Assembly (NCBI GenBank): GCA_049997855.1
Contig: JBEKSG010000001.1
Coordinates: 58,059 to 122,058, forward strand
Source: Minisyncoccia bacterium
GTDB lineage: Bacteria; Patescibacteriota; Minisyncoccia; Phycocordibacterales; SBAW01
Length of the DNA: 64,000 nt
Direction of reading: 5' to 3'
The translations under genes were made by a program, and so were the position numbers. Shown in pieces: positions 1 to 43,321 of the stretch (positions are counted from its first letter, which is position 1; each line of letters begins with the position of its first letter). The notes below the pieces were generated by a model. That model had not been told where the DNA came from, searched no databases, and saw only the letters and a program-made list of their open reading frames with translations.

Positions 1-1372
1 GGTCGGGGATCCAGGCGGCCGTGTTGAGGTCGTGCGTACGGCGGCGTTCGTCGCCGGTGTTTTTGCGAAGCTCGATAAAGTCTTCGATGTCGGCATGCCA
101 ATACTCGAGGTATACCGCGGCAGCGCCGCGGCGGCGGCCCGAGCGGTTGATGGAGATGGTAACGTCGTTGGCGATTTTAAGAAACGGGATGACCCCCTGG
201 CTCTCCACGCCGGTGCTTTTAACAATGGAACCGGTTGCACGCACGGGCGTCCAGTCGATGCCGAGGCCGCCCGCATATTTAAGGAGTTGCGCGCCATCGG
301 AGTAGTTTTTAAATATTGCATGGAGGTCGTCCGGCACCGTGGAGAGAAAGCACGACGAGAGCTGTGCGCGCACGAGCCCCGAGTGATAGAGCGTGGGGGA
401 GGACGGCGTGTAATACATCGTACTCATGACCTCGTAAAACTCAACAGCATAGCGGTTGCGCTCTTCCGGAGTTTTCTCGGCCAAGGCAATGCCCATCGCT
501 ATACGCATCCAAAAGATTTGCGGCGTCTCGAGGAGCTTGCGATTGCGGTGCTCTTTGGAAAGATAGTTGCTTTGCAATGTTTGAAGGCCGAGATACTTAA
601 ACTCATGATCGCGCTCGAGCGCGAGTGCGTCGGCTAAACGCGGCAAATCAAACTGTGCCATCTCCGGGTTAAATTGTCCGAGCTGCACGCCGCGCTTGAT
701 GGTTTGTATAAACGCATCTTTTTGTGCTTCCTCAATTTTTGCAGGTTCATGCTTGCCAAATACCTGGCTATACATCGATTGCAAAAGCAGACGAGCCGCC
801 ACCGTGGAGTGCGCCGGGTCGCGCTCGATCATCGAGCGCACCACCATAATGAGCACCTCGTGTATGTCTTTGGTAGAGATGCCTTCGTAGAGCTCGGTGC
901 GCACGCGGCTGACGATTGCCGGCACATCGACAACAGCCTCAAAGCCGCGCGCGGCGCGCAACAGCGTGCGCGTGAGCTTTGCTTCGCTAAAATACTCTTT
1001 GGTGCCTTCTTTTTTAGTGACAAGGAGCGCGTTTTCTCCTATTTTTTCGGCAATTTCCTGCTTTTTTTCTTCGCGCTTTTTTTCGTGCTCGTACCGGTAT
1101 ATGATGTAGTCTTTGGCGACGTTAAAATAGCCGCGCTCCATGAGCGCCGTTTCAACCAAGTCCTGAATATCCTCGACGCCCGGCACAAACGCCGTATTGC
1201 CAAACTTAAGGTCGATAGCGTCGACTACCGCGCGCATGATGTCCGAGGCATCGGCGTTGTGGGAGTCGCCGAGCACCGCGGCAAACGCTTTTTGGACAGC
1301 GATAGTTATTTTAACGGGGTCAAAGTCTGCTATCTCGCCGTTGCGCTTTTTAATCTTTTGCGTAATTGCCAT
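1..1372 (-). CDS. nrdA: Ribonucleotide reductase class I alpha subunit (partial, 5' part; continues beyond window start)
   Basis: Reverse-strand translation from ATG at 1370-1372 gives MAITQKIKKRNGEIADFDPVKI (ATP-cone), then ...GRRRGAAAVYLEYWHADIEDFIELRKNTGDERRRTHDLNTA, the conserved RNR large-subunit active-site region. Frame is open to position 1. Not in ORF track because it runs off the window. The plus-strand ORFs 32..637 and 674..1393 are antisense artefacts. Confidence 0.85.
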   Translation of the reverse strand, partial: MAITQKIKKRNGEIADFDPVKITIAVQKAFAAVLGDSHNADASDIMRAVVDAIDLKFGNTAFVPGVEDIQDLVETALMERGYFNVAKDYIIYRYEHEKKREEKKQEIAEKIGENALLVTKKEGTKEYFSEAKLTRTLLRAARGFEAVVDVPAIVSRVRTELYEGISTKDIHEVLIMVVRSMIERDPAHSTVAARLLLQSMYSQVFGKHEPAKIEEAQKDAFIQTIKRGVQLGQFNPEMAQFDLPRLADALALERDHEFKYLGLQTLQSNYLSKEHRNRKLLETPQIFWMRIAMGIALAEKTPEERNRYAVEFYEVMSTMYYTPSSPTLYHSGLVRAQLSSCFLSTVPDDLHAIFKNYSDGAQLLKYAGGLGIDWTPVRATGSIVKSTGVESQGVIPFLKIANDVTISINRSGRRRGAAAVYLEYWHADIEDFIELRKNTGDERRRTHDLNTAAWIPD

Positions 1373-1515
1373 ACCCAGTTCATATTATTGTAGTAATAGG
1401 TGTTAAAAAATTTAAAAAGGTTTGGCGTCTCAACGGGTCGGTTTTTGATTTTTGAGACGGATGTCAATTATACCTTTTTGAAGGATTAAATTCTGTGTAT
1501 AAGCCAGTCGGCAAT

Positions 1516-1648: not shown

Positions 1649-1668
1649 TACAAATCTGTTGTAAAATA
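1649..1668 (+). promoter_or_regulatory. 20-nt element TACAAATCTGTTGTAAAATA containing a -10-like TAAAAT immediately abutting a start codon; exact second copy at 38985-39004
   Basis: Identical 20-mer at two loci 37 kb apart, each placing TAAAAT 6-7 nt upstream of an ATG, which implies leaderless transcripts. Confidence 0.4.
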
Positions 1669-2174
1669 TGCTTATGGAAACACACCACCAGAGCGATGGG
1701 CAAAATTTTTGGAACTTTATTTTTTCTATTCTTTTTATTGCAGTACTCGCGGGTTCTCTATGGCTCATGAAGGCGGTGCGCGGCGGCTATCTCGTTTCCG
1801 TGCCGCCGTTTGACGCGCTCCTCATGGCGCTCGCGTCGTTTCGCATTACGCGCCTCGTCGTATACGACAAAATCAGCCGCTGGTTTCGCGATTTGTTTCA
1901 ACATGCCGAGACAGGAGTCATGCGCACAATACGAGACCTCCTCGGTTGTCCGTGGTGCATCGGATTTTGGTCGGCGCTCGTGATTGTCGTAGGATATTTT
2001 ATCTTTCCATGGGCATGGTCGGTCATCTTCTTTTTGGCAGTGGCCGGCGTGGGCTCGCTTATACAGCTCTATGCCAACCAGATAGGCTGGCGCGCCGAAA
2101 ATTTAAAGCTCGATGCTCAAGAAAAAGAGGAGTGCCTGAGGGCGGAGATAGACCGCACCTCGCTCGGCAACTAG
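1668..2174 (+). CDS. DUF1360-like integral membrane protein (CPWC motif); true start possibly the second ATG at 1674
   Basis: ORF track; hydrophobic helices, GCPWCIGFW motif typical of the DUF1360 family. Confidence 0.5.
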   Translation: MLMETHHQSDGQNFWNFIFSILFIAVLAGSLWLMKAVRGGYLVSVPPFDALLMALASFRITRLVVYDKISRWFRDLFQHAETGVMRTIRDLLGCPWCIGFWSALVIVVGYFIFPWAWSVIFFLAVAGVGSLIQLYANQIGWRAENLKLDAQEKEECLRAEIDRTSLGN

Positions 2175-2704: not shown

Positions 2705-3901
2705 ATGGCGTCTCGTACGCATATTTTTGTACTCGGCCTCTGCGCTCTTTTATGTGCAGGGATGGGCAGTTTTGCAATACCAGCGCATGCACAAGACTCC
2801 AGCACCAGCCAGGGAGACCAAACGCAAGCAACCTCCGACGGCCTCAACGATGTTGTTACCTACGTTAAAGCGCAGGTAACGCAAGTATTGAGCCAAACCA
2901 CCAAAATAATTCCCGGCACGGACACCAGCTCGCCGTACCAAACTATCAAGGCAAAACTGCTCGACGGCCCCGACGCAGGACAAGTGATTGAAGTCGACAA
3001 CGACTACCTGATGATGAAGCCGGGCGACGTGTTTTATTTTAGGCATACGGTCAACACGGGCGAGGGCATCGACTTTTACTCGGTGTCCGATCCGTACCGC
3101 CTGCCGGTGTTGGAGTTTTTAATCGCGCTGTTTGTCGTTTTTCTTTTTATCATCGGCGGCAAGCAAGGGATACGCGGCCTTTTGGCGCTTATCGCGAGCT
3201 TCTTTTTTATCGGTTACCTGCTTTTGCCCGGCATTTTGCACGGCTACTCGCCAATTGTAGTGAGCGTATGCGTGTCGTCGCTCATTATTATATTGGGCTC
3301 CTACATAACGCACGGATTTAATCGCGCCACCACTGCGGCTGTTATCGGTATGATAGCCACGATTATCGTGACCGGCCTGTTGGCTTATCTGTCGATACAC
3401 TCCGCGCACCTCTCTGGCTTTACCAGCGAGGAAGCGACCTATCTCAACTTTGACACGCGCGGCTCGATCGATTTTGTCGGACTTTTGCTTGGGAGCATGA
3501 TGATAGGCCTCCTTGGCGTGCTCTACGATGCGGCCATTAGCCAGGCCGTGGCCGTGGAGGAGCTCTTTGCTATGGGCGCAAACAATGAGGAACATGCGCA
3601 TTCTCGCCATGTGTTTGTACGCGCGATGCGCATCGGTCGCGAACACATCGGTGCGTTGGTAAACACGCTAGCAATTACCTATGTGGGTGCGTCGCTTCCG
3701 CTCATTTTGCTTTTTGAAGAATCAAATTTAAATTTGTGGGTCACGGTCAACCAGGAAGTGTTTGCCACCGAGATAGTGCGCATGATGATAGGCTCGATTG
3801 GCCTCATCCTCGCGGTGCCTGTTACCACCGCGGTGGCAGTGTATATGCTCGCAGGAAAAAAGATACCTCTCAGTGCTATCCACAAAGGCCACCATCACTA
3901 A
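2705..3901 (+). CDS. YibE/F family membrane protein (signal peptide, extracytoplasmic N-domain, polytopic C-terminal part)
   Basis: ORF track; paralogous over its TM region to ORF 35206..35955; C-terminal His-rich tail HKGHHH. Confidence 0.55.
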   Translation: MASRTHIFVLGLCALLCAGMGSFAIPAHAQDSSTSQGDQTQATSDGLNDVVTYVKAQVTQVLSQTTKIIPGTDTSSPYQTIKAKLLDGPDAGQVIEVDNDYLMMKPGDVFYFRHTVNTGEGIDFYSVSDPYRLPVLEFLIALFVVFLFIIGGKQGIRGLLALIASFFFIGYLLLPGILHGYSPIVVSVCVSSLIIILGSYITHGFNRATTAAVIGMIATIIVTGLLAYLSIHSAHLSGFTSEEATYLNFDTRGSIDFVGLLLGSMMIGLLGVLYDAAISQAVAVEELFAMGANNEEHAHSRHVFVRAMRIGREHIGALVNTLAITYVGASLPLILLFEESNLNLWVTVNQEVFATEIVRMMIGSIGLILAVPVTTAVAVYMLAGKKIPLSAIHKGHHH

Positions 3902-3937
3902 TTGCAACTTATTTGCGTTTGTGATAAGGTAAAGGCA

Positions 3938-4369
3938 ATGAAGAAGGCCACGGTAGATTTAAAAGCGGCGCTTAAGGGAGCGGGGTTTAAAGCGACGCCT
4001 GGACGTTTACAGCTTTTGGAGCTTTTAGCTCACACCGATGAGCCTTTAAGCGTGCTCAAAATCCAAAAAAGGCTTGGTAAAAAGCTCAATGAAGTGACGC
4101 TATACCGCGCGCTCGAGGCTTTTACAGCAGCTGGTTTGGTACGCCGTGTCGACTTAGGCCACGACCACGCGCATTACGAGCTTGCACTCGGCCGTGCGCA
4201 TCACGACCATCTCGTGTGCACTAAATGCGGAGCGATAGAAGATATCGAAGGTTGTGCGCTTGTGCCGCTTCAAAAAAAGACACTCAAGCGGTCGCATTTT
4301 AAAAGCATTTACTCGCATAATTTGGAGTTTTTCGGCCTGTGCCGAGCATGCTCGAAGTACTATGAATAG
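3938..4369 (+). CDS. zur: Fur-family metalloregulator, likely zinc uptake regulator
   Basis: MKKATVDLKAALKGAGFKATPGRLQLLELL winged helix, HHDHLVCTKCG...E metal site; sits directly upstream of znuABC with ATGA overlap. Confidence 0.75.
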   Translation: MKKATVDLKAALKGAGFKATPGRLQLLELLAHTDEPLSVLKIQKRLGKKLNEVTLYRALEAFTAAGLVRRVDLGHDHAHYELALGRAHHDHLVCTKCGAIEDIEGCALVPLQKKTLKRSHFKSIYSHNLEFFGLCRACSKYYE

Positions 4370-5291
4370 AAACTGGCTTGTTGGAATCGTAGTCATTATT
4401 GTTCTCGTTACCGGCGGTTTTCTTATCTTTAGACGTGCCCCTGCGCCTAACGGCGGAGCGGCATCAAGTGGCGTTGTGCAAGTAGTTGCGGCGGAAAATT
4501 TTTGGGGCAGTATCGTATCGCAAATCGGCGGCGCGCACGTACAAGTTTTGAGTATCGTCTCAGACCCTAATGCCGACCCGCATGAGTACGAAAGCAATGC
4601 GAGCAACGCACGCGCGGTCTCTAATGCCGCTTATGTGATTGAAAACGGCGTCGGATACGACAGCTGGATGGACAAACTGTTATCCGCCGGTGGCAGCAAT
4701 CCCAACCGCAAAGTATTAAACGTGGGCCAGCTTGTCGGCAAACAGGAAGGCGACAATCCGCACCTCTGGTATAACCCTGTGTACGTCAACCAAGCCGCCG
4801 CGCAAATGGAGCAAGACTTAATCACAATTGACCCTTCCGACAAAGCGGATTTTGAGAAAAATTACCAAACATTGCAGTCCAACTTGGCTGAATACCAAAA
4901 CCGCATCGTTTCTATTAAGCAACAATATGCCGGCACCAACGTTGCCGCGACCGAAGATATTTTTGCTTATCTTGCCGCGGCAGCCGGGCTCAACCTCATC
5001 TCTCCTCCCGCATTCATTGAGGCAGTTGCCGAAGGCAATGACCCGCCTGCTCAAAGCGTCGTTGAGTTTGAAAATCAATTGAAAGCAAAAGAACCGGTAG
5101 TGCTTGTGTACAATGAACAAACAGTGACGCCTTTGACCGAGAACGTCAAAGCGCTCGCGGCGCAGGAGAATATTCCAGTCATCGGCGTTACCGAAACTAT
5201 CCAACCGCCGGATGCGACGTTCGAGGAATGGATGAACGCCGAGCTGATTGATCTGCAGAACGCTCTTAATGCAAACGTACTGGGACAATAA
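4362..5291 (+). CDS. znuA: Metal (zinc) ABC transporter substrate-binding protein, TroA/ZnuA family
   Basis: TM anchor then conserved SIVSDPNADPHEYE and TroA-like fold signature; operon context. Confidence 0.75.
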   Translation: MNRNWLVGIVVIIVLVTGGFLIFRRAPAPNGGAASSGVVQVVAAENFWGSIVSQIGGAHVQVLSIVSDPNADPHEYESNASNARAVSNAAYVIENGVGYDSWMDKLLSAGGSNPNRKVLNVGQLVGKQEGDNPHLWYNPVYVNQAAAQMEQDLITIDPSDKADFEKNYQTLQSNLAEYQNRIVSIKQQYAGTNVAATEDIFAYLAAAAGLNLISPPAFIEAVAEGNDPPAQSVVEFENQLKAKEPVVLVYNEQTVTPLTENVKALAAQENIPVIGVTETIQPPDATFEEWMNAELIDLQNALNANVLGQ

Positions 5292-5295
5292 CAAC

Positions 5296-6081
5296 ATGAA
5301 CGAACCAGTTATTACCGCAAAAAATTTAGCGGGAGGATATGCGAGTGTCCTCATATGGAAGAATGCAAGCTTCTCAATACATAAAGGTGAGTTTGTTGCG
5401 GTACTGGGGCCCAACGGCGCCGGCAAGACGACGCTGTTTCGACTTTTGCTTGGATTGGTTCAGCCTTTACAAGGCACTCTTTCCATTTTGGGTAGAAGTC
5501 CTACGCGCGGCAATCCGCGCATCGGCTACGTGCCCCAGCGTCATCACATAGACAGCGAAACAACCATCGAGGCTCTTGAGTTGGTGCGCCTCGGGGTTGA
5601 TGGCAATCATTGGGGTGTTGAAATCTCTGCCGATGCAAAAACGGAGGCTCTTGCCGCCCTTAAAACTGTTGGGGCGGAGGCATTAGCGCATCGACCGCTA
5701 GGCGCCCTCTCCGGCGGCGAGCTCCAGCGCATTTTCCTCGCTCAAGCATTAGTCGGCAAACCAGACCTGCTGTTGCTCGATGAGCCGCTTGCCAATCTCG
5801 ATATCCGCAGAGAGTCAAATTTTGTGCAGCTTATCAACAACGTCGTGCGCTCGCAAGGCGTTACGGTTTTGCTTATTGCACACAACATTAATCCGCTGTT
5901 CCCAGTGCTCGACCGCGTGATGTATGTGGCAAACGGCCATATCGCTACGGGCAAGCCGCATGAAGTGCTGACTTCCGAATCATTAAGCAAGCTGTACGAT
6001 ACACAGGTCGAAGTACTGCGAGACTCGCGCGGCAGGATAGCTATCGTCGGTACCGAAGAACCCGCGCACCACCATGAATAA
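5296..6081 (+). CDS. znuC: Metal ABC transporter ATP-binding protein
   Basis: Walker A GPNGAGKTT, signature LSGGELQR, Walker B LLLLDEP. Confidence 0.85.
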   Translation: MNEPVITAKNLAGGYASVLIWKNASFSIHKGEFVAVLGPNGAGKTTLFRLLLGLVQPLQGTLSILGRSPTRGNPRIGYVPQRHHIDSETTIEALELVRLGVDGNHWGVEISADAKTEALAALKTVGAEALAHRPLGALSGGELQRIFLAQALVGKPDLLLLDEPLANLDIRRESNFVQLINNVVRSQGVTVLLIAHNINPLFPVLDRVMYVANGHIATGKPHEVLTSESLSKLYDTQVEVLRDSRGRIAIVGTEEPAHHHE

Positions 6082-6919
6082 CGTAACGTTCAGCTTCAAC
6101 ATCATAGGCGATCTGCAAAACATGCTGCAGTACGATTTCATGTTGCATGCGTTTGAGGCGGGAACAATAGTTGCTATTGTCGCCGGTGTTGTCGGCTACT
6201 TCGTCGTATTGCGGCGCTCGTCGTTTGCGGCGCACGCACTTTCACACATCGGTTTTGCCGGAGCGGCAGGAGCCGTGCTTTTTGGCTTCAGTCCGCTTCT
6301 GGGGCTTTTGGCATTTACCACCGGAGGCGGCGTTGTTATGGCGACACTCGGTCGCAAAGCGGCAAGCCGCGATGTACAAATCGGGACAGTGTTGGCTTTT
6401 ATGCTCGGTCTCGGTGTTTTGTTTATCAGCCTGTACTCCGGCTACGCCACCGAAGCGTATTCGCTTCTTTTTGGCGAGATTTTGGGTATCAGCAGTACGG
6501 ATGTGCTGGTAACGCTTATCGCGGGGCTTATATTGCTTGCGGCAGTAGCCGTTTTGTATCGGCCACTGTTATTTACTTCGCTCGATGAAGATGTCGCTGA
6601 AGCAAAAGGGGTATCAATTTTCTGGCTTGGCGTTGCATTCATGATTTTGGTTGCAGTTGCAACCTCTATTGCGGTGCAGGTGGTGGGCGTACTGCTCATA
6701 TTTGCGCTCATGGTCACGCCCGCCGCTATAGCAGAGCGGATAGCTCGCCGCCCCGCTCAAGGCATAGCGATATCGATAGGCGTCGCCTTGCTTGCGACAT
6801 GGTTTGGGCTTTTTATTTCGTTTTATCTACCCTATCCGGTAAGCTTCTTTATCACGACTATAACATTTGCTATGTATCTCATAGTGCGTTTTTACAGAGG
6901 TTATTTTTACAGAGGTTAA
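6074..6919 (+). CDS. znuB: Metal ABC transporter permease (ABC-3 family)
   Basis: Polytopic membrane protein overlapping znuC stop. C-terminal RFYRGYFYRG is encoded by a 14-nt tandem duplication, and the stop lies inside the REP element. Confidence 0.75.
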   Translation: MNNVTFSFNIIGDLQNMLQYDFMLHAFEAGTIVAIVAGVVGYFVVLRRSSFAAHALSHIGFAGAAGAVLFGFSPLLGLLAFTTGGGVVMATLGRKAASRDVQIGTVLAFMLGLGVLFISLYSGYATEAYSLLFGEILGISSTDVLVTLIAGLILLAAVAVLYRPLLFTSLDEDVAEAKGVSIFWLGVAFMILVAVATSIAVQVVGVLLIFALMVTPAAIAERIARRPAQGIAISIGVALLATWFGLFISFYLPYPVSFFITTITFAMYLIVRFYRGYFYRG

Positions 6920-6956
6920 ACCTTCGTTACAACTTACGAAGGTTTAACCTCCGTAG
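6911..6956. repeat. REP doublet (inverted pair GAGGTTAAACCTTCGT / ACGAAGGTTTAACCTCCGT) between znuB and pilB
   Basis: Same palindromic family as REPs at 12062-12106, 12792-12829, 13402-13420; also acts as a likely terminator hairpin. Confidence 0.7.
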
Positions 6957-12058: not shown

Positions 12059-12061
12059 TAT

Positions 12062-12106
12062 ACGGAGGTTAAACCTTCGTTTAATGTACGGAGGTTAAAC
12101 CTCCGT
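12062..12106. repeat. REP doublet (ACGGAGGTTAAACCTTCGT + ACGGAGGTTAAACCTCCGT, direct) flanking the RAYT 3' end
   Basis: 19-bp perfect palindrome ACGGAGGTT-A-AACCTCCGT seen directly. Confidence 0.75.
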
Positions 12107-12761
12107 TTTCTCCGTAGGAAAGCCATTCTTTGAGACTATGTCTAAAATCTAACGCGGTTTCAAAATACTTTGGCAGCGTTGTTTTATTGAGAATGTTACC
12201 TTCTATACGTTTTGTGCCAATATAATCGGGATAACTTGAGTACGGATATTTTTTGAGATATGTTTCCGCTCTATTTTTGTCGGCAATGCCAGTCTCTTTC
12301 CATGCCGGTTCGATTAATTTTACCGGGTTTAAATGGATATAAGAAATAAGGTAAGAGAGATAGCGATCTTCACTAACGTGCGATGATTTGTATGTCCCTT
12401 GGAAGAGTGCACCTGAGTGTTTATATTTTTTATTAAAGTACATCGTGTAAGCTGTCGTCAGTTTCTGCATAAACTTGCTTATGCCCCCGTCTGCTTTTTC
12501 GTGCACAAGCAAATGAAAATGATTTGGCATTAAACAATAGACGCCAATATCTGTCAGGGTCTCTCCGCGCTCAACCATGTGGGCTTTTTCAAGCGTTTGA
12601 CCCTGCGCTCTGGTATCCGTTGAAATACTGCTATTACAGAGATAGAGAAGTGATATAAAACGATCATAATCTATTTGGGAGGTAAAAATGTCCCTTTTTT
12701 CGACGCCGCGATTGTATAAGTGGTAAAACTCTCCTGGTGCAAAGACGCTTTTTCGTGCCAT
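12081..12761 (-). CDS. REP-associated tyrosine transposase (RAYT; IS200/IS605-like Y1 HUH transposase)
   Basis: YHLYNRG, HUH motif NHFHLLVHE, C-terminal Tyr region. Gene bracketed by REP palindromes on both sides; the last residues GGLTSVH are encoded by the REP itself. Confidence 0.75.
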   Translation of the reverse strand: MARKSVFAPGEFYHLYNRGVEKRDIFTSQIDYDRFISLLYLCNSSISTDTRAQGQTLEKAHMVERGETLTDIGVYCLMPNHFHLLVHEKADGGISKFMQKLTTAYTMYFNKKYKHSGALFQGTYKSSHVSEDRYLSYLISYIHLNPVKLIEPAWKETGIADKNRAETYLKKYPYSSYPDYIGTKRIEGNILNKTTLPKYFETALDFRHSLKEWLSYGENGGLTSVH

Positions 12762-12791: not shown

Positions 12792-12829
12792 ACAAAGGTT
12801 TAACCTTTGTACGGAGGTTAAACCTCCGT
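12792..12829. repeat. REP doublet (ACAAAGGTTTAACCTTTGT variant + ACGGAGGTTAAACCTCCGT) flanking the RAYT 5' end
   Basis: Direct sequence observation. Confidence 0.75.
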
Positions 12830-12877
12830 AACTTACGTGGGGCTTTACAAAGCTTGGAGTTTTGGTAGAGTCCCCGC

Positions 12878-13393: not shown

Positions 13394-13401
13394 GTTCAAT
13401 T

Positions 13402-13420
13402 ACGGAGGTTTAACCTCCGT
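13402..13420. repeat. Single REP palindrome ACGGAGGTTTAACCTCCGT just after the pilin stop
   Basis: Direct sequence observation. Confidence 0.7.
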
Positions 13421-13515
13421 AAATTGATTCACCCGACCCTTCATCTGGTATTTAGTCAAGCTTGCTCACTGTTATAATAGTGCGGTATGTTTGAGCGGTA
13501 AGACAAGAGGGCGGT

Positions 13516-25177: not shown

Positions 25178-25191
25178 ATATTACGTAATAT
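25178..25191. promoter_or_regulatory. 14-bp perfect palindrome ATATTACGTAATAT (copy 1 of 3), upstream of the yerC-like gene
   Basis: Exact copies at 25653-25666 and 60599-60612. Confidence 0.5.
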
Positions 25192-25210: not shown

Positions 25211-25642
25211 ATGAAAGTACGAACAAAAGAGTTGGAAGAAAGTGTAAGAATCAAAGTTCTCGATGCCTTGTATACAGCAACTTCGGCAATACAGGGCCGC
25301 GCGGCCCTGAAGCTTTTCCTGCGCGATTTGTTGACCGAAAGCGAGAGAATTATGCTCGGGAGGAGAATACTCATTGCACAACAATTGCTCCAAGGCGAGC
25401 GACCTACGGCTATCGCTTCAAACCTCAAGGTGGGCTATGACAACATCTATCGTGTACAACGCTGGCTCAGCGATCAACTTCCTGGTTATGAGCAAGCGAT
25501 TAAGGAAATGGAAAAAGAACTGAAAAAGAGGCGAGACCATTATGAAGATAGGCGACTGTATGCGACTAATATGTTATATCGACTTAAGAAAAAATATCCC
25601 GGTCATTTTTTACTTTTTCCGACTCCAACTATAAAACAATAG
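25211..25642 (+). CDS. TrpR/YerC/YecD-family DNA-binding protein
   Basis: LLTESERIMLGRRILIAQQLLQGERPTAIASNLKVGYDNIYRVQRWL matches the YerC/TrpR helix pattern; gene is bracketed by identical palindromes. Confidence 0.5.
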   Translation: MKVRTKELEESVRIKVLDALYTATSAIQGRAALKLFLRDLLTESERIMLGRRILIAQQLLQGERPTAIASNLKVGYDNIYRVQRWLSDQLPGYEQAIKEMEKELKKRRDHYEDRRLYATNMLYRLKKKYPGHFLLFPTPTIKQ

Positions 25643-25652
25643 AAATATTATG

Positions 25653-25666
25653 ATATTACGTAATAT
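25653..25666. promoter_or_regulatory. 14-bp palindrome ATATTACGTAATAT (copy 2), between the yerC-like gene and the GH130 operon
   Basis: Direct sequence observation. Confidence 0.5.
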
Positions 25667-35958: not shown

Positions 35959-37830
35959 TTATGTTTTACCTGCGACTAATGGTAGCAGATTGTATCGGAC
36001 TATGAAGTCGGATGCTTTGGTATTTTGCACCTGTGCGTTATACAGCGTTTGGCAAGAGGCGGCAGGCAGAGGTGCAAGCCTGGGGAAGGTGGTGCACGTA
36101 CCGTGCCCGAATATGCCGTCAACGGAGCCGATGTATTGCAGGTCCGAACTGATGATAAACTTTACCGCTCCCGTTCCGGGCACCCTCTGCGTCACCACCG
36201 GTGTCTTGGTGGTAAAAAGATCCTGACCGAGCACTGTAATAGGATATTGAATTCCCAACAAATCAGCAACCGTCGGATATAAGTCTATATGGCTCCCCGG
36301 CGTTTGGTCTACTCCCTCCGGCAACACATTGCCGGGAGCAAGAATAATAAGCGGTACATGCTGGTTTTGAGAATCGGAAGTGCCTATAAAAGCGCCATGA
36401 TCGCCATAAATAACAATGAGCGAATTATTGTACAAACCGTCCTTTTTTAAGCCGTCAATAAAATTCCCTAGCGCCTGGTCGCTGTAGTGCACGGCTTCTA
36501 AATATTGTTGCTGCGTCGGCGTGAGCGTTGTATCCTTCGGTATCGCCAACGTTTCAAGATCAGAGGGCAGGGTAAAGGGCGTATGCGTGCTCAGCGTAAT
36601 GAGCGTCGCCATGAACGGTTTCGGCAAGAACGTGAGTTTCGGCAGAGACTGCTCGAAAAAATCATTGTCCCCCAATCCTTCGGGCCCCACCTGCCGCGGC
36701 AGGACGTAAGCGGGCTTGCTGAAGACATCTTCATAGCCGAGCGAGGGGTACGCGTTTGAGCGATTCCAAAACGTTGCGACATCGCCGTGCATGGCCGCCG
36801 TGGTGTATCCGTTTGTGTCCAGGAGATGCGGCAAGGCGTCATACGTGTTTTCCGCATAGGTGGTGAATGCCACTTCATCGGGCAGGGGATACAACGAGTT
36901 TTGTGTGGAAAACTCCGCATCCGCCGTATTGCCTTCACCGTCTTGCGAGTAGTAGTTGGTAAAATACGCCCCTTCTTTCGAGAGTTCGGTGAGGTTGGGA
37001 GCGACTTCAACTCCGTTGATACTGTATCCTATGACCCAATTTTCGAGCGACTCCACTTGGATAAAAATAAGATTTTTGCTTTTAAGTATGCCAAAGTCGG
37101 AGCCTGTGGGTGGTAATGTTCTCTCCTTTGCCCACTCCGTCAAAAACGCTATGTCGGCCGCACTTGCCACGCGCGGCTGTAAAGCGTACTCTATCAAGCT
37201 TTCTGCATAAAAATTGACAATACCGACCTTGGCCACCAGCGAAGACAAGTTGTACATGTCGCTGTTGTCGTATAAATCTTGCGCGCTCCCAAACGTGAGT
37301 CGCTCCGAAACGATGAGCCCGCCATATCCGCCGCAGAAAACAACGATCATCAAAAAAAAAGGCAACATTTTTTCTGTTATTGAGAGCCGCCTCTCTTGTG
37401 TGCCTGTGTCGATTGCCATGTATCCCACAACCAACAAAAGCAACGGCACTATGAAAACAAGCAGTTTGTAGGTGATCAATGTTTTGATGGTGCTGATGAG
37501 ATCAATTGATTGACTAGAGTAAACAAGCGACGAGGCCTGCAAAAATCCTCCGGAATATCGGTAATACAAAAATTGCGAAATAAAGACAAGGCTTACGAGC
37601 AAAGAAACTAAAAAGAGATACGCATACCGAATGTATCTTTTTTCAAAAAACATCGCCGGGAAGAAGAGGACGGCACTGAGACCGACCGATGCCGCAACAC
37701 AACGCCACATAAAAGACCCCCACACAATATCGAGCCACCAGTTAAAAAGGAGGGTCTCTGCAATCAAAAGAAGTGCCAAAACGGTTGGCAGCCAAACTAT
37801 TTCAACAATACGGTTATATTTCATCAGCAA
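35959..37830 (-). CDS. LTA synthase / sulfatase-family membrane protein (phosphoglycerol or phosphoethanolamine transferase-like)
   Basis: 5 N-terminal TM helices plus an extracytoplasmic alkaline-phosphatase-superfamily domain (FIQVESLENW...YFTNYYSQDGEGNTADAEF). Confidence 0.6.
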   Translation of the reverse strand: MLMKYNRIVEIVWLPTVLALLLIAETLLFNWWLDIVWGSFMWRCVAASVGLSAVLFFPAMFFEKRYIRYAYLFLVSLLVSLVFISQFLYYRYSGGFLQASSLVYSSQSIDLISTIKTLITYKLLVFIVPLLLLVVGYMAIDTGTQERRLSITEKMLPFFLMIVVFCGGYGGLIVSERLTFGSAQDLYDNSDMYNLSSLVAKVGIVNFYAESLIEYALQPRVASAADIAFLTEWAKERTLPPTGSDFGILKSKNLIFIQVESLENWVIGYSINGVEVAPNLTELSKEGAYFTNYYSQDGEGNTADAEFSTQNSLYPLPDEVAFTTYAENTYDALPHLLDTNGYTTAAMHGDVATFWNRSNAYPSLGYEDVFSKPAYVLPRQVGPEGLGDNDFFEQSLPKLTFLPKPFMATLITLSTHTPFTLPSDLETLAIPKDTTLTPTQQQYLEAVHYSDQALGNFIDGLKKDGLYNNSLIVIYGDHGAFIGTSDSQNQHVPLIILAPGNVLPEGVDQTPGSHIDLYPTVADLLGIQYPITVLGQDLFTTKTPVVTQRVPGTGAVKFIISSDLQYIGSVDGIFGHGTCTTFPRLAPLPAASCQTLYNAQVQNTKASDFIVRYNLLPLVAGKT

Positions 37831-37919
37831 AATGCAATATAAGATACTATACGTATAAAGGTACGAATCCGTTTCCTATACACCCGAAAGAGTCTTGCTA
37901 TAATACGTGTAACAGCCAC

Positions 37920-38972
37920 ATGCCGCGACCATCCAAAGAACCGCATACTTTCTATAATACGACCGTTTTGATGTTAACTTCGTTTATTGTCGGTGCATTG
38001 CTTTCGGGTGGCATAACGGTTTTTGTATATTCACAAATGCCGTCATCAACGCTAAAGGCGATACGGGAAAGTGATATAGACCCCAACAATACCTACAAGT
38101 TTACCGATCCTTTAATAACTCTCTCGTCTTCCAATATAGAATCTCCCTTATATGATGCGCTGGAGCAGAATATAGAGTCATATATCGCCGAGCAAAAACC
38201 CGACGGCCTGCTTGCCGCGTCGGTATATTTTAGAGATATCAATGAGTCAAAGGGTTTTACCATCAATCCCGGCGACACCTATTATCCGGCGAGCTTGTAC
38301 AAGGTTCCGGTTATGATGACCTATTATGAAATTGCTGAGCAAGATCCTTCCATTTTGTCAGAGCAGTTGCCGTACGCTGGCGTTTCCAACTTAAACAACA
38401 TGGAGGAGGTGAGGTCGCCAATCCAACTCACGCCGGGCACCACGTATACCGTTGAGGAACTCATTGAGCATATGATCAGATACTCCGACAACAATGCGGC
38501 TCAATTATTGCTCTCCAATCTTTCGTCCAGCGGACGCTATCAAGAGTATCTCAATTTGTTTACCAGTCTTGGCATCAGTACCAGTACGGTAGATGAAGCG
38601 GCGGATTCGCTTACAGTTGGCAAATATCCGATTTTCTTGCGCACGTTGTATAACTCGACGTTTCTTGACCGCGATTACTCCGAGAAAGCGCTCCAACTTT
38701 TAACGGAGACCGATTTTACCGCAGGCATAGAGAGCGGTATTCCTAACGGGGTATTGGTTGCACAGAAATTTGGAGAGACCACGGTGGCAAATGAGCAGAC
38801 AGACATTGGCAAAGAGTTAAGCAACTGCGGCATTATCTATTATCCGAGTCATCCATACATATTGTGCATCATGACCAAAGGGGTTGGAGACAATGTTAAA
38901 GGTCTCGAAAGCAATATAGCGGCAATTTCTCGTATGGTGTATCAAAAAATGGAAGAGATTTATCCTTCCTAA
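37920..38972 (+). CDS. Class A beta-lactamase-like serine hydrolase (membrane-anchored)
   Basis: SLYK (SxxK), YSDNNAA (SDN), KFGET (KTG-like) motifs; start uncertain (ORF track start 37773). Confidence 0.5.
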   Translation: MPRPSKEPHTFYNTTVLMLTSFIVGALLSGGITVFVYSQMPSSTLKAIRESDIDPNNTYKFTDPLITLSSSNIESPLYDALEQNIESYIAEQKPDGLLAASVYFRDINESKGFTINPGDTYYPASLYKVPVMMTYYEIAEQDPSILSEQLPYAGVSNLNNMEEVRSPIQLTPGTTYTVEELIEHMIRYSDNNAAQLLLSNLSSSGRYQEYLNLFTSLGISTSTVDEAADSLTVGKYPIFLRTLYNSTFLDRDYSEKALQLLTETDFTAGIESGIPNGVLVAQKFGETTVANEQTDIGKELSNCGIIYYPSHPYILCIMTKGVGDNVKGLESNIAAISRMVYQKMEEIYPS

Positions 38973-38984: not shown

Positions 38985-39004
38985 TACAAATCTGTTGTAA
39001 AATA
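38985..39004 (+). promoter_or_regulatory. Second copy of 20-mer TACAAATCTGTTGTAAAATA (-10-like TAAAAT 6 nt before the ATG at 39010)
   Basis: Exact identity to 1649-1668. Confidence 0.4.
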
Positions 39005-39009: not shown

Positions 39010-39132
39010 ATGAAAAGGAAAGCGGTTCGGAGTGCTATAACGGGGCGGTTTGTACACAAGGGTAAGGCAAGAGCTAACCCCAAGACAACCGTCACCGAAA
39101 GCATAAGAATCCCAAAGCGTAAATCCAAATAA
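39010..39132 (+). CDS. Candidate 40-aa highly basic small protein MKRKAVRSAITGRFVHKGKARANPKTTVTESIRIPKRKSK (leaderless)
   Basis: Found by reading downstream of the conserved 20-mer; below the ORF-track size cutoff. Confidence 0.25.
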   Translation: MKRKAVRSAITGRFVHKGKARANPKTTVTESIRIPKRKSK

Positions 39133-39485
39133 TTTTTTGGGTTGCGGGCTGGGAAAACTCAAAAAAGAAAAGCCCGACTTGCAAAGACGGGGTAGTTTGG
39201 GGCATCAGCCAATATTTGACTGAGTTCTTTCCTTCAAGCGATTGGCGGCTCGTTTCCCGAATTCCTTTACGAGAAACAAGGGGTCCACTGCGGATGGTTC
39301 TTCGGGCAACATTTCGAAATACTGGTTCGTTGTCGCCCGAGCCGAGGACCTGATACTAAGCATTGCGAGACATGCCGCGAGGGCGCTCTGTACAACAAAG
39401 GGCATCGAAGTCTCCTCCTCTACAATCTAAAACCAATTATAAACATTGCCGCTGAATTTTAGATTAATTTTACGCGGTGCTATTT

Positions 39486-40115
39486 TTATTCTTCCAAATT
39501 CCTTACAGAATCGGCGTTGAGCGTCGGCTCCTGCGCGACGGTGTCGAGCATGCCGGTAATAGTCACATAATCTCCTATAAGTACATTCTGAGGAGAAATC
39601 TCTTGGCCGTCACGGTTGAGGAAACGTGTTCCGAAATTGTGCGTTTCGTAACTGCTTGCATCAGTGAGTACTATCCACCTAAAATCCGTCGAGCCCCATG
39701 CCGCACTGACGGTTATAGTCGTTCCATTTACCGCCACCACTCGTGCACTACGCAGGAGAGTGAGCCCGTTGTTGGCAATATGCATCTCACTGGGAAAGAG
39801 CGGGACGCCTGTGGCGACTGCGGGCGCAGACATCGCGGTACCTTGAGCCGCGGCTTTGTGCGGTGGAAGCGAAAAAAGGAAAACAGAGAACGAAAAAACA
39901 AAAAAGAAAATAGCGCCTACAAACAGAAAAGTTCCGAAGAGTTTGACATACGACATATCCACCATCGCCTTAAACCAGCGGCGGATTACTCCACTCCTCG
40001 CTCGGGGAAAGTCAAAGGAGTGCGGATCAAAGGTCTGCACCTCCGCAAAAAAGGCCGTAGGGGGAGCGTATAAACGCATGTTCTTAACTATAATTATATC
40101 CCGTGAAGCCATCAT
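39486..40115 (-). CDS. Hypothetical membrane-anchored protein
   Basis: ORF track; one TM helix. Confidence 0.3.
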   Translation of the reverse strand: MMASRDIIIVKNMRLYAPPTAFFAEVQTFDPHSFDFPRARSGVIRRWFKAMVDMSYVKLFGTFLFVGAIFFFVFSFSVFLFSLPPHKAAAQGTAMSAPAVATGVPLFPSEMHIANNGLTLLRSARVVAVNGTTITVSAAWGSTDFRWIVLTDASSYETHNFGTRFLNRDGQEISPQNVLIGDYVTITGMLDTVAQEPTLNADSVRNLEE

Positions 40116-40381
40116 GAATCACCGATGAATCCATTTGATTCATTTGGACTTCATGAGAAAGAACTTGGCGTGAAAGTTGGATATAAGATTTCTGTTACTA
40201 AACTCGCCACTGCCACAAAGAAGCCTGGCATAGAAGGGAAACGAGCGCGTCTTGCGGAGACTATCAAGAGCTTTCATCAAATTCATTGGGTAACTATATC
40301 AAAGATGAAAAAACACCCAAGGAAAAAATTCCTTGGGTGTTGATCTGCTCGGATGATCGCTCCTGAAACCTGCTTATTTAT

Positions 40382-40690
40382 TCAGTACGGATCATGCTCG
40401 TCGCGCACTTCCTGCACGACATAATATACGAGTGCAAAGAGGCTTATCATGATTCCGCCGAGCGCATACGAAATTGCGCTCAATGACAGATGCCACGGAT
40501 GTATGACCCACGTGTCCTGGTGATACCAAAAATGATCTCCGGCAACAGACCACAACGCAATGCCCGCGATGATTACTCCCACCATGCATGCGAAGTATAC
40601 GACTGCCCGGACCCACCACGACCAATTTTCATGCATCAGCTTCAACGGCACCGTGACGGGCCATCCAGCTACGAAGAAGATAATTTTCAC
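40382..40690 (-). CDS. Hypothetical small membrane protein (3 TM)
   Basis: ORF track. Confidence 0.3.
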   Translation of the reverse strand: MKIIFFVAGWPVTVPLKLMHENWSWWVRAVVYFACMVGVIIAGIALWSVAGDHFWYHQDTWVIHPWHLSLSAISYALGGIMISLFALVYYVVQEVRDEHDPY

Positions 40691-40794
40691 GGTTTTTCCC
40701 CCTGTGTTTTGTGCTAACTGTGCTACAGTATACAGATATATTTTAGAAAGTCAAGTATTAGTAAAGGGATGCCCAACACAGAGGCTGGGCAAGT

Positions 40795-41034
40795 TCATCG
40801 CGGCAGACCTTTATTTGCTTTGAAGATTCCGCCGCCGGAATGTAGACCGAACGAGGTGACAAGGCCGGGTATTGCTTGCGGCATGTTCTTATTACGCCAA
40901 CAAGCGTCGCAGTAAGCAGTCCCTTTTCTGACTGATTTTCCGCAGCGTACTCCTGTGGCGTAGTCTAATCCGTTACATGTTGCCTCATTGGTTTTTTCGG
41001 TAGGCTGCTTTTGAGCACTGATCGATATTGCCAT
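40795..41034 (-). CDS. Small Cys-rich zinc-ribbon-like protein
   Basis: CNGLDYATGVRCGKSVRKGTAYCDACW contains 4 Cys in a C..C...C..C arrangement. Confidence 0.35.
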   Translation of the reverse strand: MAISISAQKQPTEKTNEATCNGLDYATGVRCGKSVRKGTAYCDACWRNKNMPQAIPGLVTSFGLHSGGGIFKANKGLPR

Positions 41035-41215
41035 AGTACATCCTCCTACCCAAACTATATCATCGTTTCAGACCACCAGCTCAATGTATTAAAAAAGGGC
41101 CGCCCAAGAGGGGCGGCTTGAAACAACAGATCTTCCTGTTCGTGTGTTCGCGAACAACATGCTCCCATTGCTTGAGGCATGCCTCAAGCACGGCGGCGTC
41201 TTCGTGAAGAATCAT

Positions 41216-41869
41216 TCACATCTTCCAGCGTTCGGCGCGCTGGATCTTCAGCGCCCAGCAGACCTCCCGAACATTTTCACAGAGTCTCGTCTGTTGGTCG
41301 ACGATCTTATGAGTCGCCCGTTCATACAGAATATTGACGTAGTCCGGTTTGAATCTCAAAGCCCGGCCGATCGCAACGACATCCAGATGTAGCACGTCGC
41401 ACCCGATGAGGATGACTGCCTGCTGGGCAGCGGCGCATTTGGTGCTCTTCAGGGCGCCATCAACGATATGTTGCCATGACATACCGAATACTTGCGCGAC
41501 GCAGTCTCTTACGGCATAGATCGTCAGCTCAGCGTCACTGCTGCTTTTCATCTTCGGTGAGAATAGGCGCCAAATCTCCGTCGCACACGCCGACAGTTTC
41601 TTGTCGGCGGCGAGATGCGCCCTAGCATCCGCAATTTCCTTCCCCGAGCAGAACATGCTGTCTTGCAGAAAGCCATCCGCATCTTGCACAAACTTATGCG
41701 TACTCCCCAAGGCGAGCACCAATACTCGGGCATTCCAGCAATCCGACGAAGGATCGTCGACGGGTTCTTTGATCAGCTCGGGCGGAACTCCCATCCTACT
41801 CGAGACGATACCGGCTAAAGCCGCCAGTGTTTCCTCACGGCTTCTGTAGCCAACCTGCACATGTGCCAT
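41216..41869 (-). CDS. Hypothetical protein (start at MAHVQVGY)
   Basis: ORF track; no recognisable motif. Confidence 0.3.
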   Translation of the reverse strand: MAHVQVGYRSREETLAALAGIVSSRMGVPPELIKEPVDDPSSDCWNARVLVLALGSTHKFVQDADGFLQDSMFCSGKEIADARAHLAADKKLSACATEIWRLFSPKMKSSSDAELTIYAVRDCVAQVFGMSWQHIVDGALKSTKCAAAQQAVILIGCDVLHLDVVAIGRALRFKPDYVNILYERATHKIVDQQTRLCENVREVCWALKIQRAERWKM

Positions 41870-42093
41870 ATCTTTCTTTCTCCTGAGAGTTATGTATGGC
41901 CTTAAAGATCTCAAAACAGAACCGCACAATACTAAACCATACTATAGCACCCGGTACAATCGTACAATTATATCTTATACCACAAAAATCAATACTTGCA
42001 AATAGATTACAGCTGCATGAATCACCTACAAAGAGGAAGACCTTATTTGAGAGATGATACCGCTCCGCTCGAATAGTACAGGATTTAGTAAGC

Positions 42094-42125
42094 CAATTTA
42101 TCCCTGCGGCAGAAGCCGCAGGGAG
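42094..42125 (+). terminator. Hairpin CCCTGCGG-CAGAAG-CCGCAGGG followed by AGTTTTTGG
   Basis: 8-bp perfect stem; also may terminate the minus-strand membrane-protein operon. Confidence 0.4.
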
Positions 42126-42201
42126 TTTTTGGCTAAATGCTTAAACTGGTAACTTAACGATCCGAGACCCCCGCCGAGAATAAGGTCGCTCTCGCCGCAC
42201 C

Positions 42202-42360
42202 CTACTTTGAGGTAGGATTCAATGCGCCCCAGAATCCGACAACCGCAATGACTACGCCCAGAACTACGAGCGTCCACGTGAGCGTCATGCCCGTGAGACC
42301 TAAGAACGCCGCCACAATCACACAAAGCCCGAGCACCCCATTTGTCCAATCTTGCCACAT
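42202..42360 (-). CDS. Small 2-TM membrane protein (52 aa, start MWQDWTNG)
   Basis: ORF track 42202..42480, trimmed to the internal Met preceding the hydrophobic core. Confidence 0.3.
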   Translation of the reverse strand: MWQDWTNGVLGLCVIVAAFLGLTGMTLTWTLVVLGVVIAVVGFWGALNPTSK

Positions 42361-42542
42361 AGTATTTAGTATTAGTTGTTTTTGATAAAATGATGAAGCA
42401 AATCTCGGATGTGCCCCATGCGGTAAGTATATATCGGTTTTGGTGCTCTTTTGGAGCGAAGTGGAATAACGGGCTCCCACTGGCTGACAAGTTCAGAACC
42501 GCAGATTGGATACAGTTTGAGCGCGACCTACAGTTCAGTGGC

Positions 42543-43058: not shown

Positions 43059-43075
43059 GTTGGATAAGTTCAGAA

Positions 43076-43315: not shown

Positions 43316-43321
43316 ACAGGT

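What the first reader, a model, noticed from the sequence alone, without database searches (positions are those of the whole stretch)
1649..1676. Identical 20-mer promoter-like element placing TAAAAT directly against start codons, suggesting leaderless mRNAs
TACAAATCTGTTGTAAAATA occurs at 1649-1668 and 38985-39004. In both places an ATG lies 6-7 nt after the TAAAAT (ATG 1674, giving METHHQ..., and ATG 39010). This is where transcription would start, leaving no room for an SD sequence. The second copy precedes an unannotated 40-aa lysine/arginine-rich ORF.
Basis: partly seen in the sequence, partly recalled or inferred. Interest (0 to 1): 0.5.

Follow-up and report, generated by a model that had tools for sequence, protein, structure and literature searches.

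The report
Shared promoter for two leaderless genes
Two unrelated genes in an uncultured Patescibacteria (Minisyncoccia) genome carry the same 20-base promoter placed so that transcription should begin at the start codon; this start-codon-first layout is the normal way genes begin in this genome, so the element is real but ordinary.

Summary
TACAAATCTGTTGTAAAATA occurs exactly twice (1649-1668, 38985-39004; none expected by chance). In both copies TAAAAT is followed by exactly 6 nt and an ATG.

The leaderless reading is well supported by comparison, though no transcript 5' ends were available:
- TANNNT sits 6 nt before 12 of 110 first ATGs in the window, against 1.3 expected.
- About 20 transcription units share this layout, and Shine-Dalgarno motifs are essentially absent.
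- The layout is kept before orthologues of both genes in many relatives, even where the -10 sequence differs.

Gene 1 is a 166-aa DUF1360 membrane protein starting at ATG 1674. Gene 2, the 40-aa basic ORF, is a real gene. It shows purifying selection and belongs to a large uncharacterised family (1,504 cluster representatives, in no Pfam, NCBIfam or PHROGs model).

Only the right half, TGTTGTAAAAT, is invariant in relatives. The left half drifts at about the rate of the 6-nt gap before the ATG. The TACAA-N5-TTGTA palindrome changes spacing (N4 or N5). An operator is therefore possible but weakly supported.

No further copy was found in 73 kb of this genome or about 590 kb of fetched loci. Verdict: a lineage-specific variant of a known promoter type. 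Low to moderate interest.

The parts
1649..1668 (+). 20-mer copy 1 (TACAAATCTGTTGTAAAATA), the core promoter of the DUF1360 gene
   Evidence: Exact match. Identical in relative L023; near-identical in L017, L022 and L021.
1657..1667 (+). Invariant part TGTTGTAAAAT: -10 hexamer TAAAAT (1662-1667) plus upstream TGTTG (-17 to -13)
   Evidence: Unchanged in all 7 orthologous promoters, while the 6-nt gap changes at about 46% of positions.
1649..1663 (.). Imperfect palindrome TACAA-ATCTG-TTGTA (5-bp arms), centred near -18 and overlapping the -10
   Evidence: Read from the sequence. Spacer is N5 in window, L023 and L010 but N4 with one mismatch in L017, L022 and L021.
1674..2174 (+). DUF1360 membrane-protein gene, 166 aa, start codon ATG 1674 = predicted transcription start
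   Evidence: Pfam PF07098, E 1.2e-16. 320 homologues, mostly 165-166 aa. NCBI calls it 166 aa, MGC9602169.1. ATG 1668 is not conserved in L022 or L021.
38985..39004 (+). 20-mer copy 2, the core promoter of the small ORF; it begins 13 nt after the stop codon of the upstream beta-lactamase-like gene (37773-38972)
   Evidence: Exact match. Orthologous promoter in L010/L011 is TACAAACTTGTTGTAAAATA + aaagat + ATG.
38998..39003 (+). -10 hexamer TAAAAT of copy 2; 6-nt gap to ATG 39010
39010..39132 (+). 40-aa basic ORF MKRKAVRSAITGRFVHKGKARANPKTTVTESIRIPKRKSK: a conserved small protein of unknown function
   Evidence: 13 homologues with invariant VRSAITGRFV..A..P.TTVTE. 13 synonymous versus 6 non-synonymous codon differences to L010. 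1,504 cluster representatives at E<=1e-3. AlphaFold pLDDT 89, strand-helix-strand.

Best explanation
Each copy is a compact promoter without a -35 element. An RNA polymerase holoenzyme with a housekeeping-type sigma factor would recognise the -10 hexamer TAAAAT together with the conserved TGTTG just upstream of it. Transcription would then start 7 nt past the hexamer, on the A of the ATG.

The resulting mRNA has no 5' untranslated region and no Shine-Dalgarno sequence, so translation would begin on the 5'-terminal AUG. This is how most first genes of transcription units appear to be expressed in this Minisyncoccia (Patescibacteria) genome.

The two genes served are a DUF1360 membrane protein and a 40-aa basic protein from a large uncharacterised family.

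The identity of the upstream half (TACAAATCT, -25 to -17) most likely reflects common descent or copying of a roughly 20-bp promoter, plus at most weak constraint. A strictly required operator is less likely.

Shown: the repeat, the spacing, the genome-wide enrichment, conservation of the layout in orthologues, and the reality of both genes. Inferred: the transcription start site, the sigma factor, the mode of translation initiation, and why the left half is identical.
For: - Exact 20-mer twice, 0 expected by chance. The gap to the ATG is exactly 6 nt in both copies.
- TANNNT at a 6-nt gap precedes 12 of 110 first ATGs of ORFs of at least 90 codons, against 1.26 expected. There is no Shine-Dalgarno enrichment, and internal operon genes also lack it.
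- About 20 window genes show TGn/TANNNT + 6-7 nt + ATG.
- Most of the roughly 20 DUF1360 orthologues examined keep a -10-like hexamer 5-8 nt (usually 6) before the ATG, although the hexamer differs (TATAGT, TAGAAT, TATAAA, TATACT and others).
- Small-ORF orthologues are also leaderless, with other hexamers: L015 TACTAT, L070 TAGAAT, L071 TAGACT, each + 6 nt + ATG.
- TGTTGTAAAAT is invariant in 7 orthologous promoters, whereas the adjacent 6-nt gap differs at 11 of 24 compared positions (my count).
- In about 590 kb of window plus loci, exact TGTTGTAAAAT followed 6 nt later by an ATG opening an ORF precedes only these two gene families; a one-mismatch variant with an 8-nt gap precedes a GH130 gene in L019.
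Against: - There are no transcript 5'-end data.
- No -35 hexamer is present. The TG dinucleotides lie at -17/-16 and -14/-13, not at the canonical -15/-14, so the promoter class is inferred from local consensus rather than from a textbook match.
- Descent or copying alone is an unsatisfying account of 13/13 identity upstream of the -10. The next-best promoter pairs share 9/13. The window's version equals the apparent ancestral consensus at both loci, which hints at some constraint or gene conversion.
- L023 has an identical 45-nt promoter region although 62 of its 166 DUF1360 codons differ (23 amino-acid changes, 39 synonymous). This suggests either extra constraint or recombination.
Confidence: 0.8

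Rival explanations
1. The promoter also carries an operator. The 15-bp palindrome TACAA-N5-TTGTA, centred at about -18 and overlapping the -10, binds a dimeric repressor that co-regulates the DUF1360 protein and the small basic protein as a small regulon.
For: - Perfect 5-bp inverted arms occur in both window copies, in L023 and in L010.
- An ACAA...TTGT inverted repeat persists in 6 of 7 orthologous promoters.
- 13/13 identity upstream of the -10 is an outlier among the window's promoters.
- The exact TGTTGTAAAAT + 6 nt + ATG arrangement precedes only these two gene families in about 590 kb.
Against: - The right arm is confounded with the promoter itself (TTG + TA of the -10).
- The left arm changes register: N5 in window, L023 and L010; N4 with one mismatch in L017, L022 and L021. 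A dimeric binding protein would rarely tolerate that.
- Left-half positions -25 to -18 differ at 11 of 32 compared positions, similar to the unconstrained gap at 11 of 24 (my count).
- L070 and L015 small-ORF promoters lack the left arm.
- No third site and no candidate regulator were found.
- The genome does contain a much more convincing operator-like palindrome elsewhere (ATATTACGTAATAT, 3 perfect copies). That shows what a conserved operator looks like here.
Confidence: 0.22
2. TGTTGTAAAAT, with the A-rich segment upstream, is the recognition sequence of an alternative sigma factor. On this view the two genes form a sigma-specific regulon and are not read by the housekeeping enzyme.
For: - TGTTG at -17 to -13 is invariant, and it differs from the TGn at -15/-14 seen in most other leaderless promoters of the window.
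- The exact motif is restricted to two gene families.
Against: - TAAAAT is a good housekeeping -10 (T-12, A-11, T-7), at the same 6-nt distance from the ATG as every other promoter here.
- More distant orthologues of both genes use ordinary TGnTATAAT-like promoters, so the genes are not tied to a special sigma.
- No sigma factor gene was seen in the window among the ORFs scanned.
- Sigma-54 is excluded on sequence: the -24 GG and -12 GC are absent.
Confidence: 0.08
3. It is not a promoter at all. The 20-mer would be a fragment of a dispersed repeat, a mobile-element end or recombination site, or a chance repeat, and the genes would be transcribed from upstream.
For: - Copy 2 lies at the left edge of a probable integrated element (about 39.1-52.9 kb: methylase, helicase, serine recombinase, tRNA-Asn).
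- The L010 and L011 contigs both break 14 nt after the small ORF.
- Distant homologues of the small ORF sit in mobile-element contexts.
Against: - Identity is exactly 20 nt, with unrelated flanks and only two copies.
- No matching repeat lies at the other end of the island.
- Copy 1 is in a conserved core context (nrdA / DUF1360 / YibE-F) in many relatives.
- The exact 6-nt spacing to a conserved ATG in seven orthologous loci is unexplained by a repeat or att-site model.
- No Shine-Dalgarno sequence is available for a leadered transcript.
Confidence: 0.04

Closest known systems
Bacterial leaderless-mRNA promoters ('group C' genomes of GeneMarkS-2: Actinobacteria, Deinococcus-Thermus; e.g. Mycobacterium tuberculosis, Deinococcus deserti)
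   Same: A Pribnow-type -10 box (TANNNT) lies 6-8 nt upstream of the start codon of the first gene of a transcription unit. There is no Shine-Dalgarno sequence, the start codon is ATG, and the pattern is genome-wide (PMC6028130).
   Different: The host is a Minisyncoccia/Paceibacterota (Patescibacteria) MAG. Full-text searches found no paper describing leaderless transcription in this phylum. Internal operon genes here also lack Shine-Dalgarno motifs, unlike typical group C genomes, where internal genes keep an RBS.
Extended -10 (TGn) / Bacillus '-16 region' (TRTGn) promoters that work without a -35 element
   Same: There is no recognisable -35. Conserved T/G-rich bases lie immediately upstream of the -10. 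Most other promoters in the window are TGnTATAAT-like.
   Different: In the 20-mer the conserved bases are TGTTG at -17 to -13, so TG sits at -17/-16 and -14/-13 rather than -15/-14. Whether sigma region 3 contacts them is not known. The comparison with the textbook consensus rests on general knowledge and was not tested here.
Operators overlapping the -10 (LexA, Fur or TetR-type palindromic repressor sites)
   Same: A 15-bp sequence with 5-bp inverted arms overlaps the -10 and is shared by two promoters.
   Different: The arms are short, spacing is not conserved between orthologues (N4 versus N5), and neither a regulator nor a third site was found. It does not resemble the probable Fur/Zur box next to the fur gene of the same genome. 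It also differs from the E. coli LexA CTGT-N8-ACAG box (from memory). The Patescibacteria LexA paper (PMID 28618189) could not be read.

Membership tests
Leaderless-mRNA promoter (bacterial group C type) | -10-like hexamer TANNNT ending 6-8 nt before the start codon | tested here: met
   TAAAAT + exactly 6 nt + ATG at both copies.
Leaderless-mRNA promoter (bacterial group C type) | No Shine-Dalgarno sequence and no room for one; start codon is AUG | tested here: met
   The gaps ATGCTT and ACAGGC contain no GGAG-like motif, and both starts are ATG. An in-frame TAA inside the -10 blocks upstream starts.
Leaderless-mRNA promoter (bacterial group C type) | Pattern is genome-wide and peaks at a fixed distance from first-gene starts | tested here: met
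   12 of 110 first ATGs have TANNNT at a 6-nt gap, against 1.26 expected; other gaps give 0-6.
Leaderless-mRNA promoter (bacterial group C type) | Arrangement conserved in orthologues although the promoter sequence turns over | tested here: met
   DUF1360 orthologues L017-L039. Small-ORF orthologues L010, L015, L070, L071.
Leaderless-mRNA promoter (bacterial group C type) | Primary transcript 5' end coincides with the A of the start codon | not testable with these tools
   No transcriptome data available.
Canonical sigma-70 -35/-10 promoter | TTGACA-like hexamer 16-18 nt upstream of the -10 | tested here: not met
   The consensus scan found no such site on the + strand at either copy. The window's leaderless promoters show no -35 consensus.
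Extended -10 promoter (TGnTATAAT) | TG at -15/-14 | tested here: not met
   The sequence is TGTTG-TAAAAT, so TG lies at -17/-16 and -14/-13. Most other window promoters do have TGn.
Palindromic repressor operator | Inverted repeat whose two arms and spacing are conserved across orthologous promoters | tested here: inconclusive
   N5 and perfect in window (x2), L023 and L010. N4 with one mismatch in L017, L022 and L021. Absent in L015 and L070.
Palindromic repressor operator | Further sites in the genome and an identifiable cognate regulator | tested here: not met
   No third site in 73 kb of this genome or about 590 kb of loci. No regulator could be linked to it.
Dispersed repeat / REP / MITE | Similarity extending beyond the short core, in many copies | tested here: not met
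   Exactly 20 nt in two copies. It is distinct from the REP-like TACGGAGGTTAAACCTCCGTA family.
Sigma-54 (-24/-12) promoter | GG at -24 and GC at -12 | tested here: not met
   Read from the sequence: TA at -25/-24 and GT at -13/-12.
Known protein family for the 40-aa ORF (Pfam, NCBIfam, PHROGs, PDB) | Significant profile or fold match | tested here: not met
   No hits. Best PDB sequence match E 0.099. Best Foldseek match E 1.1.

The most novel reading that the evidence does not exclude
The left half of the 20-mer is a functional operator (TACAA-N4/5-TTGTA) for an unidentified regulator. That regulator would couple expression of a near-universal Paceibacterota DUF1360 membrane protein to a 40-aa basic protein from a large, completely uncharacterised family, making a first defined mini-regulon in an uncultured Patescibacteria lineage. 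Alternatively, roughly 20-bp leaderless promoters may be copied between loci as self-contained cassettes in these reduced genomes.
Probability: 0.2. Interest if true: 0.45.

Novelty: new member of a known kind. Interest (0 to 1): 0.3.

Why it matters
Main consequences:
- **Translation initiation in Patescibacteria.** The element shows, from sequence comparison alone, that a Minisyncoccia genome starts most transcription units at the start codon and uses almost no Shine-Dalgarno sequences. Full-text searches found no paper describing this for Patescibacteria.
- **Gene calling in CPR MAGs.** It fixes the DUF1360 start at ATG 1674. It also rescues a conserved 40-aa gene that was missed in this MAG.
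- **A new small-protein family.** The 40-aa gene belongs to a widespread module (S-A-I-T-G-R-F-V ... P-x-T-T-V-T-E, often in tandem) that has no Pfam, NCBIfam or PHROGs model.
- **The 20-mer itself.** It is probably just a lineage-specific promoter variant shared by two genes.

Tried and rejected
- **Genome-collection scan for the 19-mer.** It gave 9 single hits in unrelated taxa (Shewanella, Flavobacterium, Bacteroidales and others). I read these as chance.
- **Fur/Zur operator idea.** A fur gene lies at 3938-4369 and a 7-1-7 reading of the 20-mer is possible. Rejected: the conserved element before fur in the window, L017 and L021 is TTGCAAgTTATTTGCGTTTG-like and unrelated to the 20-mer.
- **NrdR box idea.** DUF1360 is divergent from nrdA. 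Rejected: the 20-mer is a single site, has the wrong length (13-15 bp against 16), and the nrd-proximal conserved elements are different (2 x TTTTGCAAAA).
- **LexA box.** It bears no resemblance to the LexA motifs I know. The Patescibacteria LexA paper could not be read.
- **Sigma-54 -24/-12 reading.** The spacing coincides, but the GG and GC are missing.
- **att site or mobile-element end for copy 2.** No matching repeat lies near tRNA-Asn or the recombinase.
- **Function of the small protein.** No hit in Pfam, NCBIfam, PHROGs, PDB sequences or Foldseek, despite a confident model.
- **Literature on leaderless transcription in Patescibacteria/CPR.** Nothing relevant was found.
- **Extending the genome.** A further 9 kb to the right (L073, 100% identical in the overlap) holds no further copy.

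Full report
**1. The observation**

TACAAATCTGTTGTAAAATA occurs at 1649-1668 and 38985-39004, both on the + strand. No other match appears even with 3 mismatches allowed, and none appeared in 100 shuffles.

Identity begins and ends exactly at the 20-mer; the flanks are unrelated. It is the second-longest exact repeat in the window and is distinct from the REP-like family that gives the longest.

TAAAAT lies at 1662-1667 and 38998-39003. In both copies exactly 6 nt separate it from an ATG (1674 and 39010). In both, the TAA of TAAAAT is an in-frame stop. The ORFs therefore cannot start further upstream, apart from ATG 1668 in copy 1.

**2. The organism and its usual gene starts**

Exact protein look-ups place the window in an NCBI MAG named 'Minisyncoccia bacterium', on a 147,346-bp contig. 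NCBI calls the DUF1360 protein at 166 aa there. A JGI contig is 100% identical over 12 kb. Homologues are labelled Candidatus Paceibacterota or Patescibacteria.

Leaderless layout is the rule in the window:
- Among 110 first ATGs of ORFs of at least 90 codons, TANNNT ends exactly 6 nt upstream in 12 cases, against 1.26 expected. Other distances give 0-6.
- About 20 transcription units show (TGn)TANNNT + 6-7 nt + ATG. Examples are 2660(-), 2705, 12761(-), 12878, 25130(-), 30428(-), 53050, 54973, 59902, 61436 and 62005.
- There is no -35 consensus.
- Shine-Dalgarno 4-mers are not enriched before first ATGs. They are also missing before internal operon genes.

This is the 'group C' pattern of Lomsadze et al. 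[quoted passage not shown] That pattern is known mainly from Actinobacteria and Deinococcus-Thermus.

**3. The two genes**

*Gene 1 (1674-2174)* is a DUF1360 membrane protein (PF07098).
- It is divergent from nrdA, whose N-terminal part occupies 1-1374 on the minus strand.
- It has 320 homologues at E<=1e-10, mostly 165-166 aa.
- ATG 1668 is not conserved: the equivalent codon is ATC in L022 and ATA in L021. The start is therefore ATG 1674.

*Gene 2 (39010-39132)* encodes MKRKAVRSAITGRFVHKGKARANPKTTVTESIRIPKRKSK.
- It has 13 word-index homologues with 17 invariant positions.
- Against the L010 orthologue, 13 codons differ synonymously and 6 non-synonymously.
- A profile search found 1,504 cluster representatives at E<=1e-3. 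Many carry two tandem modules.
- There is no Pfam, NCBIfam, PHROGs or PDB match.
- AlphaFold gives a confident strand-helix-strand model (pLDDT 89) with no fold match.
- Its exact sequence is absent from the protein collection, so it was not called in this MAG.

**4. Comparative anatomy of the promoter**

| Locus | Gene | Sequence from -25 to the start codon |
|---|---|---|
| window, L023 | DUF1360 | TACAAATC TGTTGTAAAAT atgctt ATG |
| L017 | DUF1360 | TAACAATC TGTTGTAAAAT gtggga ATG |
| L022 | DUF1360 | TCACAATT TGTTGTAAAAT atcttc ATG |
| L021 | DUF1360 | ATAAAAAT TGTTGTAAAAT ataagc ATG |
| window | small ORF | TACAAATC TGTTGTAAAAT acaggc ATG |
| L010 | small ORF | TACAAACT TGTTGTAAAAT aaagat ATG |

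(DUF1360 rows. Small-ORF rows.)

- TGTTGTAAAAT and the 6-nt spacing never change.
- The 6-nt gap differs at 11 of 24 compared positions. The left half (-25 to -18) differs at 11 of 32, which is close to that apparently unconstrained rate. Both figures are my counts.
- More distant orthologues of both genes remain leaderless but use ordinary hexamers (TATAGT, TAGAAT, TATAAA, TACTAT and others).
- The most distant small-ORF homologues have a leader and a Shine-Dalgarno sequence, and sit in mobile-element contexts.
- Across about 590 kb of window plus loci, exact TGTTGTAAAAT followed 6 nt later by an ATG that opens an ORF precedes only these two gene families. A one-mismatch variant (TGTAGTAAAAT, 8-nt gap) precedes a GH130 gene in L019.

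**5. The palindrome**

The 20-mer contains TACAA-ATCTG-TTGTA, centred near -18. It is perfect with an N5 spacer in both window copies, in L023 and in L010. In L017, L022 and L021 the best reading has an N4 spacer with one mismatch. It is absent from L015 and L070.

The right arm is part of the promoter itself, so only the left arm is independent evidence, and the left arm drifts.

In favour of some extra constraint or gene conversion:
- The two window promoters share 13 of 13 positions upstream of the -10, against at most 9 of 13 for any other promoter pair.
- L023 keeps an identical 45-nt promoter region although 62 of its 166 DUF1360 codons differ, 23 of them changing the amino acid.

I therefore rate an operator as possible (about 0.2) but not the best reading.

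**6. Mechanism**

Shown:
- the repeat and its exact 6-nt spacing to an ATG;
- the genome-wide enrichment of that spacing;
- conservation of the layout in orthologues;
- that both genes are real.

Inferred:
- RNA polymerase with a housekeeping-type sigma factor recognises TAAAAT plus the upstream TGTTG, without a -35 element;
- it initiates on the A of the ATG, 7 nt after the hexamer;
- translation starts on the 5'-terminal AUG.

The identical left half is best explained by descent from, or copying of, one roughly 20-bp promoter. Both loci appear to have carried TACAAATCTG ancestrally, and the relatives each differ from that consensus by 0-4 changes.

**7. Rivals**

- *Operator or mini-regulon* (0.22): see section 5.
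- *Alternative sigma factor* (0.08): TAAAAT is a good housekeeping -10, and orthologues use ordinary promoters.
- *Not a promoter* (0.04), meaning a repeat fragment, an att site or chance. Against it: the 20-nt limit, only two copies, the conserved ATG spacing, no partner repeat, and the core-genome context of copy 1.
- *Rejected on sequence:* Zur, NrdR, LexA and sigma-54 readings.

**8. Verdict**

The element is a lineage-specific variant of a known promoter type, in a phylum where this has not been described in the searchable literature.

The most useful by-products are the corrected gene start, the rescued small gene with its large unannotated family, and the evidence that this Patescibacteria genome is largely leaderless and free of Shine-Dalgarno sequences. 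Interest is low to moderate (0.3).

Noticed in passing
window 25178-25191, 25653-25666, 60599-60612: Three perfect copies of the 14-bp palindrome ATATTACGTAATAT (0.05 expected). Two flank a TrpR-like repressor gene (25211-25642, PF01371). The third lies 12 nt upstream of gene 60624-61301, an HhH-GPD glycosylase according to the L073 annotation. It looks like the operator of the TrpR-like protein, with autoregulation plus one target.
   Followed up: partly
window 6912-6955, 12061-12106, 12808-12830, 13400-13422: A REP-like palindromic repeat, TACGGAGGTTAAACCTCCGTA, occurs in at least four places. Two copies bracket an IS200-like Y1 transposase ORF (12081-12761, minus strand; PF01797). This is a RAYT/REP-type arrangement in a Patescibacteria genome.
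   Followed up: partly
window 1-1374 (-) and 1375-1673: The left end of the window is the N-terminal part of nrdA (ATP-cone ribonucleotide reductase), so the listed + strand ORFs 32-637 and 674-1393 are spurious. The nrdA-DUF1360 intergenic region holds two perfect TTTTGCAAAA palindromes (about 1518-1527 and 1541-1550). The block is conserved in L017 and, with one base changed in the second palindrome, in L019. This may be a lineage-specific nrd regulatory site.
   Followed up: partly
window 3895-3937, before the fur-family gene 3938-4369: The conserved element TTGCAActTATTTGCGTTTGTGA overlaps the leaderless promoter of a Fur-family gene (NCBIfam hits), which is followed by a ZnuC-like ABC ATPase (5248-6081). 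The same element precedes fur in L017, L018 and L021, where a second related copy lies nearby. It is probably a Fur/Zur box.
   Followed up: partly
window about 39140-52961: A block of ORFs with no Pfam or PHROGs hits, plus an N6/N4 DNA methylase (47221-49026), a ResIII helicase (49023-51398) and a large serine recombinase (51401-52927). The recombinase abuts tRNA-Asn (52885-52961, minus strand). This is probably an integrated mobile element; no att repeats were found. The small ORF lies at its left edge, and two independent assemblies of a relative break 14 nt after the small ORF.
   Followed up: partly
window-wide; e.g. starts at 6074, 8170, 9661, 11112, 49023, 56158: Genes inside operons also lack any Shine-Dalgarno-like motif upstream. 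Translation initiation in this organism therefore appears largely independent of Shine-Dalgarno pairing, not only at leaderless first genes.
   Followed up: partly
L015 2990-3030; L070 480-510: In two relatives the 3' end of the small ORF contains GGGTATAAT + 6 nt + ATG, a leaderless promoter for the downstream gene (MRNCTLVLHNIRSVHNVG...). The promoter is embedded in the coding sequence of the 40-aa gene.
   Followed up: no
proteins P0134-P0283: The 30-aa module RSAITGRFV-x6-A-x3-P-x-TTV-x-E is widespread: 1,504 cluster representatives, 86 of them at E<=1e-10. It often occurs as two tandem copies in 65-75-aa proteins, and occasionally at the C-terminus of long proteins (e.g. P0222, 424 aa). 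It is not in Pfam, NCBIfam or PHROGs.
   Followed up: partly
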